From the NCBI RefSeq assembly GCF_003334405.1, contig NZ_QOWM01000020.1: a DNA stretch of 60,030 bases. One strand, given 5' to 3'. Both the position numbers and the translations under genes were made by a program. This document shows, one piece after another, positions 6,368-24,880 of this stretch; position 1 is the stretch's first letter, and every line of letters starts with the position of its first letter. This stretch comes from Escherichia coli. Its GTDB lineage: Bacteria; Pseudomonadota; Gammaproteobacteria; Enterobacterales; Enterobacteriaceae. The notes under the pieces were generated by a model. It saw nothing but the letters and a program-made list of their open reading frames with translations. It did no database searches and was not told the origin of the DNA.

Positions 6368-7183
6368 ATGACGGAAGTTAGACGGCGCGGCAGGCCAGGA
6401 CAGGCGGAGCCTGTGGCACAGAAGGGCGCACAGGCGTTAGAGCGGGGAATTGCGATTCTGCAATATTTGGAAAAAAGTGGGGGAAGTTCGTCGGTTAGCG
6501 ATATTTCTCTCAATCTGGATTTGCCGCTCTCCACGACCTTTCGCTTGCTGAAGGTTTTACAGGCAGCGGATTTTGTCTATCAGGACAGTCAATTAGGCTG
6601 GTGGCATATAGGATTAGGTGTCTTTAACGTCGGTGCGGCGTACATCCATAACCGCGATGTCCTCTCCGTCGCCGGGCCGTTTATGCGCCGCCTGATGTTA
6701 CTTTCCGGCGAAACGGTCAATGTCGCGATCCGTAACGGCAATGAAGCGGTATTAATTGGTCAGTTAGAGTGTAAATCGATGGTCAGGATGTGTGCGCCAC
6801 TGGGCAGTCGTCTGCCACTGCATGCTTCCGGTGCGGGCAAAGCGCTGCTTTATCCGCTGGCGGAAGAGGAGTTGATGAGCATCATTCTGCAAACCGGTTT
6901 GCAGCAGTTTACGCCAACTACGCTTGTGGATATGCCCACCTTGCTGAAGGACCTGGAACAAGCGCGTGAACTGGGCTATACCGTAGATAAAGAAGAGCAT
7001 GTTGTAGGTCTGAATTGCATAGCTTCAGCAATTTACGATGATGTCGGTAGTGTTGTTGCCGCTATCTCCATCTCCGGGCCTTCATCAAGACTGACAGAAG
7101 ATCGTTTTGTCAGTCAGGGTGAGCTGGTCAGAGACACCGCCCGCGATATCAGCACGGCGTTGGGACTGAAAGCACATCCATAA
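6368..7183 (+). CDS. allR: IclR-family repressor of the allantoin regulon
   Basis: 271 aa; IclR-type N-terminal HTH and C-terminal effector domain. Confidence 0.9.
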
Positions 7184-7195
7184 TGTCTGTCGCAT

Positions 7196-7220
7196 CCCGC
7201 TCTGCGGAGCGGGTTTTTTT
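7196..7220 (+). terminator. Rho-independent terminator after allR
   Basis: GC stem CCCGCTC-tgcg-GAGCGGG followed by a run of seven T. Confidence 0.6.
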
Positions 7221-7235
7221 GACAAAATTTGAAAG

Positions 7236-7252
7236 TTGGAAAAATTTTCCAA
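7236..7252. promoter_or_regulatory. Candidate AllR operator in the gcl promoter
   Basis: Perfect palindrome TTGGAAAAATTTTCCAA about 20 bp upstream of the gcl start. Confidence 0.6.
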
Positions 7253-7272
7253 TAAATAGAGGTAGGAATAAA

Positions 7273-9054
7273 ATGGCAAAAATGAGAGCCGTTGACGCGG
7301 CAATGTATGTGCTGGAGAAAGAAGGTATCACTACCGCCTTCGGTGTTCCGGGAGCTGCAATCAATCCGTTCTACTCAGCGATGCGTAAGCACGGCGGTAT
7401 TCGTCACATTCTGGCGCGTCATGTGGAAGGTGCTTCGCACATGGCGGAAGGTTATACCCGCGCAACGGCAGGGAATATCGGCGTATGTCTGGGGACTTCC
7501 GGTCCTGCGGGCACGGACATGATCACCGCGCTCTATTCCGCTTCTGCTGATTCCATTCCTATTCTGTGCATTACCGGCCAGGCACCGCGCGCCCGTCTGC
7601 ATAAAGAAGATTTTCAGGCCGTAGATATTGAAGCAATTGCTAAACCGGTCAGCAAAATGGCGGTTACAGTTCGTGAAGCGGCGCTGGTGCCTCGCGTGCT
7701 GCAACAGGCATTTCACCTGATGCGTTCTGGTCGTCCGGGTCCGGTACTGGTGGATTTACCGTTCGACGTTCAGGTTGCGGAAATCGAGTTTGATCCTGAC
7801 ATGTACGAACCGCTGCCGGTCTACAAACCTGCTGCCAGCCGTATGCAGATCGAAAAAGCTGTAGAAATGTTAATCCAGGCCGAACGTCCGGTGATTGTTG
7901 CCGGGGGCGGGGTAATTAATGCTGACGCAGCTGCACTGTTACAACAGTTTGCTGAACTGACCAGCGTTCCGGTGATCCCAACGCTAATGGGCTGGGGCTG
8001 TATCCCGGACGATCATGAACTGATGGCCGGGATGGTGGGTCTGCAAACCGCGCATCGTTACGGTAACGCAACGCTGCTGGCGTCTGACATGGTGTTTGGT
8101 ATCGGTAACCGTTTTGCTAACCGTCATACCGGCTCGGTAGAGAAATACACCGAAGGGCGCAAAATCGTTCATATTGATATTGAGCCGACGCAAATTGGTC
8201 GCGTGCTGTGTCCGGATCTCGGTATTGTCTCTGATGCTAAAGCGGCGCTGACACTGCTGGTTGAAGTGGCGCAGGAGATGCAAAAAGCGGGTCGTCTGCC
8301 GTGTCGTAAAGAATGGGTCGCCGACTGCCAGCAGCGTAAACGCACTTTGCTGCGCAAAACCCACTTCGACAACGTGCCGGTGAAACCGCAGCGCGTGTAT
8401 GAAGAGATGAACAAAGCCTTTGGTCGCGATGTTTGTTATGTCACCACCATTGGTCTGTCACAAATCGCTGCGGCACAAATGCTGCATGTCTTTAAAGACC
8501 GCCACTGGATCAACTGTGGTCAGGCTGGTCCGTTAGGCTGGACGATTCCGGCTGCGCTAGGGGTTTGTGCCGCTGATCCGAAACGCAATGTGGTGGCGAT
8601 TTCTGGCGACTTTGACTTCCAGTTCCTGATTGAAGAGTTAGCTGTTGGCGCGCAGTTCAACATTCCGTACATCCATGTGCTGGTCAACAACGCTTATCTG
8701 GGGCTGATTCGTCAGTCACAACGCGCTTTTGACATGGACTACTGCGTGCAACTCGCTTTCGAGAATATCAACTCCAGTGAAGTGAATGGCTACGGTGTTG
8801 ACCACGTAAAAGTAGCGGAAGGTTTAGGTTGTAAAGCTATTCGGGTCTTCAAACCGGAAGATATTGCGCCAGCCTTTGAACAGGCGAAAGCCTTAATGGC
8901 GCAATATCGGGTACCGGTAGTCGTGGAAGTTATTCTCGAGCGTGTGACCAATATTTCGATGGGCAGCGAACTGGATAACGTCATGGAATTTGAAGATATC
9001 GCCGATAACGCAGCGGACGCACCGACTGAAACCTGCTTCATGCACTATGAATAA
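7273..9054 (+). CDS. gcl: Glyoxylate carboligase (tartronate-semialdehyde synthase), ThDP enzyme
   Basis: 593 aa from ATG 7273 ([19 protein letters not shown]); the track ORF starts 30 codons upstream, inside the terminator/operator region. Confidence 0.9.
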
Positions 9055-15244: not shown

Positions 15245-16390
15245 ATGAAGATTGTCATTGCGCCAGACTCTTTTAAAGAGAGCTTAAGTGCAGAAAAATG
15301 TTGTCAGGCAATTAAAGCCGGGTTTTCGACCCTCTTTCCCGATGCGAACTATATCTGTTTGCCGATAGCGGATGGCGGCGAAGGGACGGTGGATGCGATG
15401 GTCGCCGCGACGGGCGGCAACATCGTGACGCTTGAAGTCTGCGGGCCGATGGGCGAAAAAGTGAATGCTTTTTATGGCCTTACCGGCGACGGGAAAACGG
15501 CGGTGATTGAGATGGCGGCAGCAAGTGGCCTGATGCTGGTCGCGCCTGAAAAGCGTAATCCGTTGCTGGCCTCCAGTTTTGGTACGGGGGAGTTAATTCG
15601 TCATGCGCTGGATAACGACATTCGCCATATTATTCTCGGCATTGGCGGCAGTGCGACGGTCGACGGCGGTATGGGCATGGCGCAGGCGCTCGGTGTGCGT
15701 TTCCTTGATGCCGACGGTCAGGCGCTGGCGGCAAACGGTGGTAATTTAGCGCGCGTGGCAAGCATTGAGATGGATGAATGCGATCCGCGTCTGGCGAATT
15801 GCCATATTGAAGTAGCATGTGACGTTGATAACCCGCTGGTAGGGGCACGCGGCGCGGCGGCGGTGTTTGGCCCGCAAAAAGGGGCAACGCCGGAGATGGT
15901 CGAAGAACTTGAACAGGGGCTGCAAAATTACGCCCGTGTTTTACAACAGCAAACTGAAATTAATGTCTGCCAGATGGCGGGCGGCGGCGCTGCGGGCGGT
16001 ATGGGTATTGCGGCGGCGGTATTTCTCAATGCGGATATTAAACCGGGCATTGAAATTGTGTTGAATGCGGTCAATCTTGCGCAGGCAGTGCAGGGCGCAG
16101 CACTGGTGATTACCGGGGAAGGGCGCATCGACTCGCAAACGGCAGGCGGTAAAGCGCCGCTGGGTGTGGCGTCGGTGGCGAAGCAGTTTAATGTACCGGT
16201 GATTGGGATTGCTGGCGTATTGGGTGATGGCGTGGAAGTGGTGCACCAGTACGGCATTGACGCGGTATTCAGCATTTTGCCTCGTCTGGCACCTTTAGCC
16301 GAAGTGCTCGCCAGCGGTGAAACCAATCTCTTCAACAGCGCGCGAAATATTGCCTGCGCCATTAAAATAGGTCAGGGAATTAAAAACTAA
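15245..16390 (+). CDS. glxK: Glycerate kinase II
   Basis: ~381 aa, [14 protein letters not shown] start. Confidence 0.9.
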
Positions 16391-16439
16391 CCCTTACCTT
16401 TAAAGCGGATGCGATTTATATCGCATAAGAGTGCAGTAC

Positions 16440-16550
16440 TCATGCCGGATGCGGCATGAGTACCATATCCTTCCTGAAAATCGCGCAAATTCTATATATT
16501 GCAGAGATCATGTAGGCCTGATAAGCGAAGCGCATCAGGCAATGTTACAA
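16440..16550. repeat. REP (repetitive extragenic palindrome) elements
   Basis: REP-type palindromes (GCCGGATGCGGC; GTAGGCCTGATAAGCG...CGCATCAGGCA) between convergent glxK and allE. Confidence 0.7.
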
Positions 16551-16617
16551 AAAAAGCCACGGTATAAACCGTGGCAAAATCCAACATAGCTAAAAATAAT
16601 CAGGCGAGTGGTATGAC

Positions 16618-17403
16618 TTAAATCTCTACGTCGCGGTTACAATCTTTCGAGTAAATATAGCTGAACGCTTCACCACGCCCTACACCATAACCAGCCTGTA
16701 AAGAATAAGCGCCCATAAAGATGTAATCGCCTTTTTTCACCGGGATCCAGTTATTGTCGAGGTTATAAACCCCCTGACCGGAAAGAATATAGGCACCGTG
16801 TTCCTGAACGTGTGTTTCGATATAACCGTGGCTGGCACCTGGTGCAAAAGAGAGGATATGCATGTTCATATCAAAACCTAACTCTTTGGGCAGAAAATCC
16901 AGCAGAATAACATCGTCCATGCCTTCATAATGAATGCGTTCCAGTTCGCTGGCATTGCCAGAAACCAGCCACGGTGCATAGCCTTCTACCGGAACATAGC
17001 GGCGCTTATATAAAAAGATTTGGCTGTCTTCGGCCTGGGCGTTAACAAACGTCATTAAGGAGCCTGGCGGGCAATAAAGATAGCCACCTTCGCTTAAGGC
17101 AAATGTTTTGCCTTCGGCTTTGGCAGTGATATTTCCAGAGATCACATACAGGAACGTTTCAATGCCTTCGCCACCGAAGCCCTGTTGGTTGCCACCGTTT
17201 TGATGCAGTGTGACCAGATAATCAACAAAAGAGGCACCCAGCTTTGGCGTGGAGAGGATTGTCGCGTCACAATTTTCAAAGCCCGGAATAATATTTTTTA
17301 CCAGACCATCCGGGGTTAACAGTGCGAAATTACCGTGTTTAACAATCGCACGGTTAGCCAGTAAATCTTCGCGGTAACCGGTGACGTTATTTAAATATCC
17401 CAT
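16618..17403 (-). CDS. allE: (S)-ureidoglycine aminohydrolase, bicupin
   Basis: 261 aa; synteny. Confidence 0.9.
   Translation of the reverse strand: MGYLNNVTGYREDLLANRAIVKHGNFALLTPDGLVKNIIPGFENCDATILSTPKLGASFVDYLVTLHQNGGNQQGFGGEGIETFLYVISGNITAKAEGKTFALSEGGYLYCPPGSLMTFVNAQAEDSQIFLYKRRYVPVEGYAPWLVSGNASELERIHYEGMDDVILLDFLPKELGFDMNMHILSFAPGASHGYIETHVQEHGAYILSGQGVYNLDNNWIPVKKGDYIFMGAYSLQAGYGVGRGEAFSYIYSKDCNRDVEI

Positions 17404-24699: not shown

Positions 24700-24880
<181 letters not shown>

What the first reader, a model, noticed from the sequence alone, without database searches (positions are those of the whole stretch)
16440..16550. REP palindromes between convergent glxK and allE
Imperfect REP-type inverted repeats fill this convergent gap. 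They are ordinary for E. coli but can act as mRNA stabilisers, terminators or IS target sites.
Basis: seen in the sequence. Interest (0 to 1): 0.15.

Follow-up and report, generated by a model that had tools for sequence, protein, structure and literature searches.

The report
Decayed BIME-1 repeat behind glxK
The palindromes between glxK and allE are one worn copy of an ordinary E. coli intergenic repeat (a BIME-1: two inverted REP units around an IHF-type linker) that replaced the tail of the glxK terminator in about 44% of E. coli genomes.

Summary
It can be made more exact.

- **Location:** The window is identical here to E. coli K-12 MG1655, in the convergent glxK/allE gap.
- **Identity:** Bases 16427-16546 are a single BIME-1 (RIB/RIP) element. 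It consists of a decayed y REP (26/35 to family consensus, GTAG lost), a conserved L linker (30/34, weakened IHF core) and an intact z1 REP (29/30, GTAG kept).
- **Copy number:** The family has at least 40 copies in every E. coli genome searched.
- **Polymorphism:** The 120-bp allele is in 2361 of 5426 complete genomes. 2953 carry a 21-bp allele that completes a glxK intrinsic terminator. K-12 keeps that terminator's hairpin but has lost its T-run.
- **Direction:** Other enterobacterial genera lack the element, so it is a derived insertion or replacement.
- **Hairpin:** A perfect 12-bp hairpin (16436-16463) is a reinforced version of a latent hairpin at the element's left junction. All seven changes from the family consensus improve pairing.
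- **Likely role (inferred):** selfish relic whose hairpins now shape the glxK mRNA 3' end.
- **By-product:** The adjacent allE terminator is the Hfq-enriched STnc480 region, which Rfam models on the opposite strand.

The kind is already known and interest is low.

The parts
16409..16426 (+). Former glxK intrinsic-terminator hairpin (7-bp stem ATGCGAT/ATCGCAT, loop TTAT). Its T-run is missing in this allele.
   Evidence: Fold. The short allele (L002) has the same hairpin followed by T7 and is called as a + strand terminator. No + strand terminator is called in the window. See the alignments.
16427..16546 (.). The 120-bp long-allele-specific segment, a single decayed BIME-1 element. In other genomes the 21-bp sequence CTTTTTTTACCTGAATTTACT stands in its place.
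   Evidence: Alignments. The long allele is in 2361 of 5426 genomes and the short allele in 2953 of 5426. Family alignment.
16427..16442 (+). Remnant of the family's left flanking (A) motif, AAGAGTGCAGTACTCA.
   Evidence: Aligned to the 28-locus consensus ...AAAGTGCGCTTTGTTCA. 12/30 of the whole A motif is retained.
16443..16477 (-). Decayed y-type REP (read as iREP on the + strand). GTAG has become TCAG and the 3' arm and inner stem are broken.
   Evidence: 26/35 identity to the y consensus, lower than all 28 family copies (median 97%, minimum 86%). Sequence read.
16436..16463 (.). Perfect 12-bp hairpin GTACTCATGCCG-GATG-CGGCATGAGTAC, made of the A-motif remnant plus the 5' half of the y REP.
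   Evidence: I2, 100% complementary. Folds. Single copy per genome. The consensus arms give 9 Watson-Crick pairs; 7 substitutions give 12, with P = 4e-6 under random substitution. One compensatory pair in Escherichia sp. E1V33.
16478..16511 (+). L linker of BIME-1, with an IHF-like core ATTCTATATATTG at 16489-16501.
   Evidence: 30/34 to the family consensus. Rfam ES036 match at 16477-16519, 38.1 bits against a gathering score of 37.6. The IHF core has 2 mismatches to WATCAANNNNTTR, against 1 in the family consensus.
16512..16541 (+). Intact z1-type REP with 5' GTAG, GTAGGCCTGATAAGCGAAGCGCATCAGGCA.
   Evidence: 29/30 to the z1 consensus. Pattern match. Predicted bulged stem-loop.
16542..16548 (+). 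Remnant of the right flanking (B) motif, ATGTTAC against the consensus ATTTTGC.
   Evidence: 7/18 of the B motif retained.
16549..16575 (-). allE intrinsic terminator. The hairpin GCCACGGTTTATACCGTGGC (16575-16556) is followed by U7 (16555-16549). It bounds the element but is not part of it.
   Evidence: Conserved in the short allele and in other genera.
16545..16611 (-). allE 3'UTR, the STnc480 region. It is adjacent context and not part of the BIME.
   Evidence: Rfam RF02068 at 87.6 bits against a gathering score of 72, reported on the + strand. Sittka 2008 Table S3 places STnc480 on the ylbA (allE) strand, with 18.5-fold Hfq co-IP enrichment.

Best explanation
**Identity (shown).** Window 16427-16546 is one old, partly decayed copy of the E. 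coli BIME-1 repeat, also called RIB or RIP. It consists of a y REP and a z1 REP in inverse orientation around the conserved L linker that carries an IHF-type site, with stubs of the family's flanking motifs.

**Origin (strong inference).** In an ancestor of part of the genus Escherichia the element replaced 21 bp directly after the glxK terminator hairpin. That removed the terminator's T-run. Both alleles still segregate, at 43.5% long and 54.4% short.

**Mobility (inferred).** The y side can no longer be recognised by the REP-associated Y1 transposase, because its GTAG has become TCAG and its palindrome is broken. The z1 side is intact and remains a potential substrate for that transposase and a potential target for IS621-type insertion sequences.

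**Function at this locus (moderate inference).** The element is selfish or neutral DNA. Its two strong stem-loops, the 12-bp hairpin and the z1 REP, now lie in the 3' end of gcl-operon/glxK transcripts that are no longer stopped by an intrinsic terminator. There they most likely act in the generic REP way. They would block 3'-to-5' exonucleases and so set a stable mRNA 3' end, and they would partially attenuate read-through, with Rho assistance, before it runs antisense into allE.
For: **Identity**
- The BIME-1 definition is y plus z1 in inverse orientation, a long conserved L linker that often carries an IHF site, single copies, and a required GTAG (PMC3333891; PMC2817692).
- A family consensus was built from 28 distinct loci. 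The window copy scores z1 29/30, L 30/34 and y 26/35.
- Rfam ES036, which in effect models the L linker plus GTAGGCCT, matches at 38.1 bits.
- The sister copy at chiP-glnS is 86% identical.
- The family has at least 40 places per genome in all 5426 genomes.

**Polymorphism and terminator loss**
- See the alignments.
- The long allele is in 2361 genomes and the short allele in 2953.
- A + strand terminator is called in the short allele and not in the window.

**Direction of change**
- Klebsiella, Raoultella, Citrobacter and Superficieibacter lack the element. The Salmonella gap is only 79 bp.
- Superficieibacter and E. coli E69 keep a hairpin followed by TTTTTTACC, like the short allele.
- In the BL21, HS and E1V33 haplotype, the orphaned terminator hairpin has 3 stem-breaking substitutions.

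**Hairpins**
- Four hairpins are predicted in the glxK 3' region, with z = -6.75.
- The 12-bp hairpin is locus-specific. It was reached from the consensus by 7 pairing-improving changes, P = 4e-6.

**IS targeting in sister copies:**
Against: - No expression or 3'-end data for this locus were found, so the RNA-level role is inferred from family properties only.
- The allantoin genes are normally poorly expressed (established knowledge), so selection on the glxK 3' end may be weak.
- The IHF core has an extra mismatch (CAA to CTA), so IHF binding may be lost.
- The allele difference is a 21-bp to 120-bp replacement with no target duplication. The insertion mechanism is therefore not shown.
- The ancestral state rests on few outgroups. 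E. whittamii and Escherichia sp. E1V33 carry the long allele, so the polymorphism is either old or exchanged by recombination.
- The hairpin statistic assumes that the family consensus equals the ancestor of this copy, and it was computed after the hairpin had been noticed.
Confidence: 0.8

Rival explanations
1. **Exapted 3'-end module.** After the BIME destroyed the glxK terminator, selection remodelled the dead y REP into a perfect 12-bp hairpin. On this reading the hairpin is now a maintained, functional glxK mRNA stabiliser or transcription barrier that protects allE and its 3'UTR RNA from convergent read-through. It would not be a mere by-product.
For: - All 7 differences from the family consensus in the 24 arm positions improve pairing: 2 double-compensatory pairs and 3 upgrades, P = 4e-6.
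- One further compensatory pair (A-T against G-C) separates the E. coli and Escherichia sp. E1V33 alleles.
- The hairpin is invariant in most long-allele genomes: 1802 of 2078 are at least 99% identical.
- Meanwhile the neighbouring orphan terminator hairpin decays in one haplotype.
Against: - Templated correction of a quasi-palindrome during replication can create and maintain perfect palindromes with no function at all (established mutational mechanism).
- HS and E1V33 each carry one stem-disrupting change.
- No U-run follows the hairpin, so it is not an intrinsic terminator.
- 54% of genomes do without the element.
- Another decayed family copy (L041) shows the same switch to the alternative hairpin. 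That points to a structural tendency of the family and away from locus-specific selection.
Confidence: 0.25
2. **IHF-binding architectural site.** The element's main present role would be on DNA. IHF would bind the L linker and bend the DNA at the end of two convergent operons, as described for RIB/RIP elements.
For: - The L linker is the best-conserved non-REP part (30/34).
- The literature states that BIME-1 L linkers frequently carry an IHF site and that RIBs sit at the 3' ends of transcription units.
- An IHF-like core lies at 16489-16501.
Against: - The core ATTCTATATATTG has 2 mismatches to WATCAANNNNTTR, including the CAA triplet (CTA here). The family consensus has only 1 mismatch.
- No binding data were obtained here.
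- More than half of E. coli genomes lack the site.
Confidence: 0.15
3. **Independent small-RNA gene.** The region would encode its own small RNA, because Rfam ES036 (CssrF) matches 16477-16519.
For: The Rfam hit is just above the gathering score, at 38.1 against 37.6 bits.
Against: - The ES036 consensus is simply the BIME-1 L linker plus the first 8 bases of the z1 REP (one search compared). Any BIME-1 copy would therefore match it.
- The promoter-like count in 16200-16800 is not above shuffles (1 found, 1.2 expected), and that site lies downstream at 16571-16600.
- No terminator lies on the + strand.
- The score is marginal.
Confidence: 0.04
4. **Chance.** The inverted repeats would be chance palindromes with no relation to REP elements.
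For: None beyond the degeneracy of the left unit.
Against: See:
- The patterns are strongly enriched over shuffles.
- The z1 unit is 97% identical to its consensus.
- The whole 107-bp unit recurs 40 or more times per genome.
Confidence: 0.01

Closest known systems
BIME-1 (also called RIB, reiterative IHF-BIME, or RIP) elements of E. coli (Gilson, Bachellier and Hofnung; Boccard and Prentki; Oppenheim)
   Same: - One y REP and one z1 REP in inverse orientation, with GTAG/CTAC facing a conserved linker of about 34 nt that carries an IHF-type core.
- A single copy, not a tandem array.
- Located at the 3' ends of transcription units.
- Polymorphic between strains.
   Different: - The y REP is the most degenerate of the 29 copies compared (74% against a family median of 97%).
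- Its GTAG is lost.
- The IHF core has one extra mismatch.
- The flanking A and B motifs are reduced to stubs.
- The left junction has become a perfect 12-bp hairpin.
Solitary REP / palindromic units acting as mRNA 3' stabilisers and transcription attenuators (malE-malF type; BIME attenuation described by Espeli and colleagues)
   Same: Stable GC-rich stem-loops lie in the 3' untranslated end of an operon, without a U-run.
   Different: - No experimental data exist for this locus.
- Here the element replaced a pre-existing intrinsic terminator and was not added to an unstructured spacer.
BIME-2 arrays (y/z2 tandem arrays that bind gyrase), for example window 24711-24867 between ybcF and purK
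   Same: The same REP superfamily and the same y unit.
   Different: BIME-2 arrays use z2 (a longer REP) and short linkers, come as tandem copies, and have no L linker or IHF site. The glxK-allE element has none of these features.
Non-autonomous MITE-like elements mobilised by REP-associated Y1 transposases (RAYT / TnpA_REP)
   Same: REP with a 5' GTAG and a bulged stem on the z1 side. Presence/absence polymorphism.
   Different: No target-site duplication or clean empty site. One end is inactivated. Mobilisation of BIME-1 has never been shown directly (PMC3333891 reports cleavage and strand exchange in vitro only).

Membership tests
REP (palindromic unit), z1 type: right unit 16512-16541 | 30-40 nt imperfect palindrome matching the type consensus | tested here: met
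   29/30 to the z1 consensus from 28 loci. Predicted bulged stem-loop.
REP (palindromic unit), z1 type: right unit 16512-16541 | Conserved GTAG tetranucleotide 5' of the stem foot (PMC3333891) | tested here: met
   GTAG at 16512-16515.
REP (palindromic unit), z1 type: right unit 16512-16541 | Extragenic and highly repeated in the genome | tested here: met
   Lies in the glxK-allE gap. At least 40 related places in the median genome, which is the reporting cap.
REP, y type: left unit 16443-16477 | Consensus match, with GTAG (CTAC on this strand) and its own imperfect palindrome | tested here: not met
   26/35 to consensus, lower than all 28 family copies. CTAC reads CTGA, so GTAG is TCAG. The arm ATCCGGC has become ATCCTTC and the inner GGCG/CGCC stem is lost. 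It is a relic of a y REP and not a functional member.
BIME-1 (RIB/RIP) | y and z1 REPs in inverse orientation, as a single copy | tested here: met
   (I4). There is no tandem repetition in the gap.
BIME-1 (RIB/RIP) | Conserved long L linker between the two REPs | tested here: met
   30/34 to the family consensus. The 20-mer matches with 1 mismatch against 0.01 expected. Rfam ES036 at 38.1 bits.
BIME-1 (RIB/RIP) | IHF binding site in L | tested here: inconclusive
   The core ATTCTATATATTG has 2 mismatches to WATCAANNNNTTR, against 1 in the family consensus. Actual binding cannot be tested with these tools.
BIME-1 (RIB/RIP) | Flanking A and B motifs (seen as conserved flanks in the family alignment made here) | tested here: inconclusive
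   Only stubs remain, A 12/30 and B 7/18. Several bona fide family copies are equally poor.
Substrate of the REP-associated Y1 transposase (TnpA_REP / RAYT) | REP with GTAG and a stem mismatch, bound and cleaved by the enzyme | not testable with these tools
   The sequence requirements (PMC3333891) are present on the z1 unit and absent on the y unit.
Intrinsic (Rho-independent) terminator of glxK | GC-rich hairpin followed directly by a U-run on the + strand | tested here: not met
   No + strand terminator is called in the window at 16200-16800. The short allele does have one.
Rfam ES036 (CssrF) sRNA | Score at or above the gathering threshold, and an independent transcript | tested here: inconclusive
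   38.1 against 37.6 bits. However, the model equals the BIME-1 linker, and no promoter or terminator supports a separate gene.
Rfam STnc480 (adjacent, 16545-16611) | Score at or above the gathering threshold, and the strand of the RNA | tested here: met
   87.6 against 72 bits. The source paper places the RNA on the allE strand, which is the window's - strand and opposite to the Rfam hit strand.

The most novel reading that the evidence does not exclude
The dead y REP has been rebuilt into a perfect 12-bp hairpin by a run of compensatory changes, because the BIME insertion destroyed the glxK intrinsic terminator. On this reading the long and short alleles (43.5% and 54.4% of E. coli) are a natural, roughly balanced experiment. 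An intrinsic terminator has been swapped for a REP-derived RNA barrier at a convergent junction whose other arm makes an Hfq-bound 3'UTR RNA (STnc480). The two alleles would then differ in glxK mRNA stability and in antisense interference with allE and STnc480.
Probability: 0.12. Interest if true: 0.35.

Novelty: already known. Interest (0 to 1): 0.1.

Why it matters
It matters little, because this is a textbook class of E. coli intergenic repeat in the best-studied genome. Three modest points come out of it.

- It is a clean example of a BIME replacing the U-run of an intrinsic terminator. Both alleles are common, so they could be used to measure what a REP does to a real operon end.
- A decaying REP can switch to an alternative hairpin with its flank and be perfected there. 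This is relevant to how such repeats age.
- An annotation point follows: the Rfam ES036 family is in effect the BIME-1 linker, and the Rfam STnc480 model appears to be on the strand opposite to the published RNA.

Tried and rejected
- **ES036 and CssrF paper searches.** Full-text searches for "ES036" and "CssrF" returned only unrelated papers, such as grant numbers and materials science.
- **STnc480 paper search.** "STnc480" gave no hit in main texts. It was then found in the supplement of PMC2515195.
- **Primary papers not held.** The primary RIB and BIME-polymorphism papers (PMC413762, PMC1207841) are not held. The family definitions were therefore taken from PMC3333891 and PMC2817692.
- **glxK terminator papers.** A search for papers on the glxK terminator or its 3' ends found nothing relevant. 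A search for ylbA, Hfq and sRNA also found nothing relevant.
- **K-12 annotation.** The MG1655 RefSeq record in this collection carries no REP features, even at the obvious ybcF-purK cluster. Absence of annotation is therefore uninformative.
- **Short-allele megablast.** Megablast with the short-allele junction gave no match, probably because of low-complexity masking. It was repeated in distant mode.
- **E69 insert.** The different insert in E. coli E69 at the same spot is not a high-copy repeat, with 1-3 partial places per genome. It was not pursued.
- **CCTGAA alignment.** MAFFT aligned the short-allele 21 bp to the end of the y REP through a shared CCTGAA. A 6-mer match between 21 and 120 bases is expected by chance about half the time (my estimate), so it was rejected as evidence of homology.
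- **52-aa ORF.** A 52-aa GTG ORF at 16431-16589 spans the repeat and the terminator. It was dismissed as mechanical.
- **Failed scripts.** Two Python runs failed, one on a file path and one on time-out. Both were rerun.

Full report
**1. What is at the coordinates**

The window around the finding is 100% identical to E. coli K-12 MG1655. Window coordinate + 526,643 gives the MG1655 coordinate.

glxK (b0514, + strand) stops at 16388-16390. allE (b0515, formerly ylbA, - strand) occupies 16618-17403.

- a perfect 12-bp hairpin, 16436-16447 paired with 16452-16463;
- inverted arms TGCCGGATGCG and CGCATCAGGCA at 16443-16453 and 16531-16541.

Reading the sequence gives GTAGGCCTGATAAGCGAAGCGCATCAGGCA at 16512-16541. 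This is a REP with its hallmark 5' GTAG.

**2. More than chance, and a repeat family**

- REP half-site patterns occur 5 and 4 times in the 60-kb window, against 0.70 and 0.02 expected from shuffles. All the other matches are in a second REP cluster at 24711-24867.
- The 107-bp unit 16441-16547 finds related sequence in all 5426 complete E. coli genomes. The median is 40 places per genome, which is the reporting cap.
- A sister copy in the chiP-glnS spacer (L003 1500-1605) is 86% identical over the whole unit.

**3. It is a BIME-1, not just REPs**

The literature held here defines BIME-1 as follows: one y and one z1 REP in inverse orientation, separated by a long, well-conserved L linker that frequently carries an IHF site, and occurring as single copies. 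The GTAG and a stem mismatch are required for recognition by the REP-associated Y1 transposase (PMC3333891; PMC2817692).

To avoid relying on a remembered consensus, I scanned metagenome contigs for the linker 20-mer. I extracted 113 instances and reduced them to 28 distinct loci with different flanks. The consensus by module is:

| Module | Consensus |
|---|---|
| A | TCAGATTGCTGACAAAGTGCGCTTTGTTCA |
| y | TGCCGGATGCGGCGTGAACGCCTTATCCGGCCTAC |
| L | AAAAnCATGCAAATTCAATATATTGCAGAAATCAT |
| z1 | GTAGGCCTGATAAGCGTAGCGCATCAGGCA |
| B | ATTTTGCGTTTGTCATCA |

Against this consensus the window copy scores as follows:

| Module | Window copy |
|---|---|
| z1 | 29/30 |
| L | 30/34 |
| y | 26/35 |
| A | 12/30 |
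| B | 7/18 |

The y score is lower than in every one of the 28 family copies, whose median is 97% and minimum 86%. The copy's CTAC reads CTGA, so on the other strand GTAG is TCAG. Its 3' arm ATCCGGC has become ATCCTTC.

One caveat applies. The family was ascertained through the linker 20-mer, so variation inside that 20-mer is not sampled.

Rfam's ES036 (CssrF) model matches 16477-16519 at 38.1 bits, against a gathering score of 37.6. Its consensus is simply the L linker plus GTAGGCCU. That hit therefore restates BIME-1 membership and is not evidence of a separate sRNA gene.

The IHF-type core at 16489-16501, ATTCTATATATTG, has two mismatches to WATCAANNNNTTR. The family consensus ATTCAATATATTG has one. 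The extra mismatch falls in the CAA triplet, so IHF binding may be weakened. This is an inference.

**4. A presence/absence polymorphism that removed a terminator tail**

Two alleles exist across 5426 complete genomes.
- 2361 genomes carry the long allele seen in the window.
- 2953 genomes carry a short allele.

In the short allele the 21-bp sequence CTTTTTTTACCTGAATTTACT stands in place of the 120 bp at 16427-16546.

In the short allele the hairpin GGATGCGAT-ttat-ATCGCATCT is followed by a T-run and is called as a + strand intrinsic terminator. In the window the same hairpin survives at 16409-16426, but the T-run is gone and no + strand terminator is called anywhere in 16200-16800.

In the BL21, HS and E1V33 long-allele haplotype the orphaned hairpin carries three stem-breaking substitutions. 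This is consistent with relaxed constraint.

**5. Direction of change**

A single scan of species-representative genomes with a 22-mer from the allE terminator region retrieved 10 loci.
- Klebsiella (three species), Raoultella, Citrobacter and Superficieibacter have no BIME. In most of them glxK's stop is followed almost directly by the allE terminator hairpin.
- The Salmonella gap is 79 bp.
- Superficieibacter and the divergent E. coli E69 have a hairpin followed by TTTTTTACC, like the short allele.

The short allele is therefore the ancestral type and the BIME allele is derived.

Escherichia sp. E1V33 and E. whittamii (locus truncated) carry the long allele. The replacement is therefore either old or has spread by recombination. 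There is no target duplication, so the insertion mechanism is not shown.

**6. The 12-bp hairpin**

Its left arm comes from the stub of the A motif and its right arm from the 5' half of the y REP. It is single-copy per genome.

In consensus family copies the same positions form a latent alternative hairpin with 9 Watson-Crick pairs plus wobbles. This hairpin loses to the canonical REP fold. In copies whose y REP has decayed (L041, L045, L049, L132) the predicted fold switches to the alternative.

The window copy differs from the consensus at 7 of the 24 arm positions, and every change improves pairing:
- two double-compensatory pairs, T-A to C-G and G-C to A-T;
- three upgrades of wobbles or mismatches.

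Random placement of 7 substitutions gives 12/12 pairs with P = 4e-6. This is a post-hoc statistic and it assumes that the consensus equals the ancestor of this copy.

E1V33 has G-C where E. coli has A-T at one pair, but it also carries one disruptive change, as does strain HS.

Two explanations remain open. One is selection for a stable hairpin once the terminator was lost. The other is function-free templated correction of a quasi-palindrome. I cannot separate them with sequence alone.

**7. How it most likely works**

Shown:
- the element's identity;
- the polymorphism;
- the loss of the glxK T-run;
- strong predicted hairpins in the glxK 3' region, four in all, with a fold z-score of -6.75.

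Inferred: transcripts of the gcl-glxK operon run into the element. There the 12-bp hairpin and the z1 REP act as 3'-exonuclease barriers and partial, Rho-assisted attenuators. These are the roles the literature gives REP/BIME elements.

On DNA, the z1 unit remains a potential TnpA_REP substrate and IS target. In two different sister loci (L065, L072) an insertion begins at the GTAG of the z1 REP. In L065 that insertion encodes a 326-aa IS110-family RNA-guided transposase (NF033542, 254.5 bits).

No expression or 3'-end data for this locus were found.

**8. Surroundings**

On the - strand, GCCACGGTTTATACCGTGGC followed by U7 (16575-16549) is the allE terminator.

Rfam STnc480 matches 16545-16611 at 87.6 bits, against a gathering score of 72, on the + strand. 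The original Salmonella report differs on strand (Sittka 2008, Table S3):
- It lists STnc480 in the glxK/ylbA gap with orientation "-> <- <-", that is, on the ylbA strand.
- It records 74 Hfq co-IP reads against 4 control reads, and the Northern entry reads "nd".
- The probe sequence GCCACGGTTCTCACCG equals the Rfam sense sequence, so it detects the opposite strand.

The real RNA is therefore the allE 3'UTR on the - strand, and the Rfam model seems inverted. The BIME's right edge abuts this terminator's U-run.

**9. Verdict**

The locus-specific details have minor interest. They are the terminator-tail replacement, the reinforced hairpin and the roughly balanced dimorphism. Interest is 0.1.

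Noticed in passing
window 16545-16611 (RNA on the - strand, 16617 down to 16549): Rfam STnc480 matches on the + strand at 87.6 bits. The source paper's Table S3 places STnc480 on the ylbA (allE) strand, with 18.5-fold Hfq co-IP enrichment, and the Northern probe equals the Rfam sense sequence. The RNA is therefore the allE 3'UTR with its terminator, and the Rfam model appears strand-inverted. The 19 nt upstream of the hairpin (UUUAGCUAUGUUGGAUUUU) are identical in 6 genera, although those loci were ascertained with a 22-mer that includes 15 of those 19 nt.
   Followed up: partly
window 24711-24867 (ybcF-purK gap): A second REP cluster holds four REPs in alternating orientation (z2, y, z2, y types) with short linkers, which makes it a BIME-2-like array. 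It accounts for all other REP pattern matches in the window.
   Followed up: partly
L065 about 7150-8270 and L072 (metagenome contigs; sister BIME-1 loci): The same inserted sequence (ATACTGTTATGGCCTGCAAG...) starts at the GTAG of the z1 REP in two different BIME-1 loci. In L065 it encodes a 326-aa IS110-family RNA-guided transposase (NF033542, 254.5 bits), probably IS621-like. The window's z1 REP carries the same site, GTAGGCCTGAT.
   Followed up: partly
L013 (E. coli E69, CP089930.1), glxK-allE gap: This is a third allele. The glxK terminator hairpin is duplicated around an insert of about 80 bp that contains a CCCCTCTCCCC/GGGGCGAGGGG hairpin. The right part is of the short-allele type. The insert is not a high-copy repeat in E. 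coli, with 1-3 partial places per genome. The spot just after the glxK terminator hairpin seems insertion-prone.
   Followed up: partly
L004 (BL21), L005 (HS) and L014 (Escherichia sp. E1V33), positions homologous to window 16409-16426: In this long-allele haplotype the orphaned glxK terminator hairpin carries three stem-breaking substitutions (GCGAT...ATCGC has become GCTAT...TTCGT). K-12 keeps it intact and identical to the short allele. This suggests relaxed constraint, or recombination between haplotypes.
   Followed up: no
Family alignment of 28 BIME-1 loci: Most BIME-1 copies carry conserved flanks of about 30 and 24 nt, TCAGATTGCTGACAAAGTGCGCTTTGTTCA and ATTTTGCGTTTGTCATCAnTCTCA. By eye the two flanks look partly inverted-repeat-like (not scored), which would make the full element about 165 bp and MITE-like. 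In copies with a decayed y REP (L041, L045, L049, L132) the predicted fold switches to an alternative hairpin between the A-motif end and the 5' half of y.
   Followed up: partly
NC_000913.3 540000-546000 and 550800-552000 (L001, L020): The MG1655 RefSeq record as held in this collection lists no repeat features, even over the obvious REP cluster. REP/BIME annotation cannot be checked from it.
   Followed up: yes
window 16431-16589 (+): A 52-aa GTG ORF spans the BIME and the allE terminator. It is almost certainly a mechanical ORF and no further test was made.
   Followed up: no
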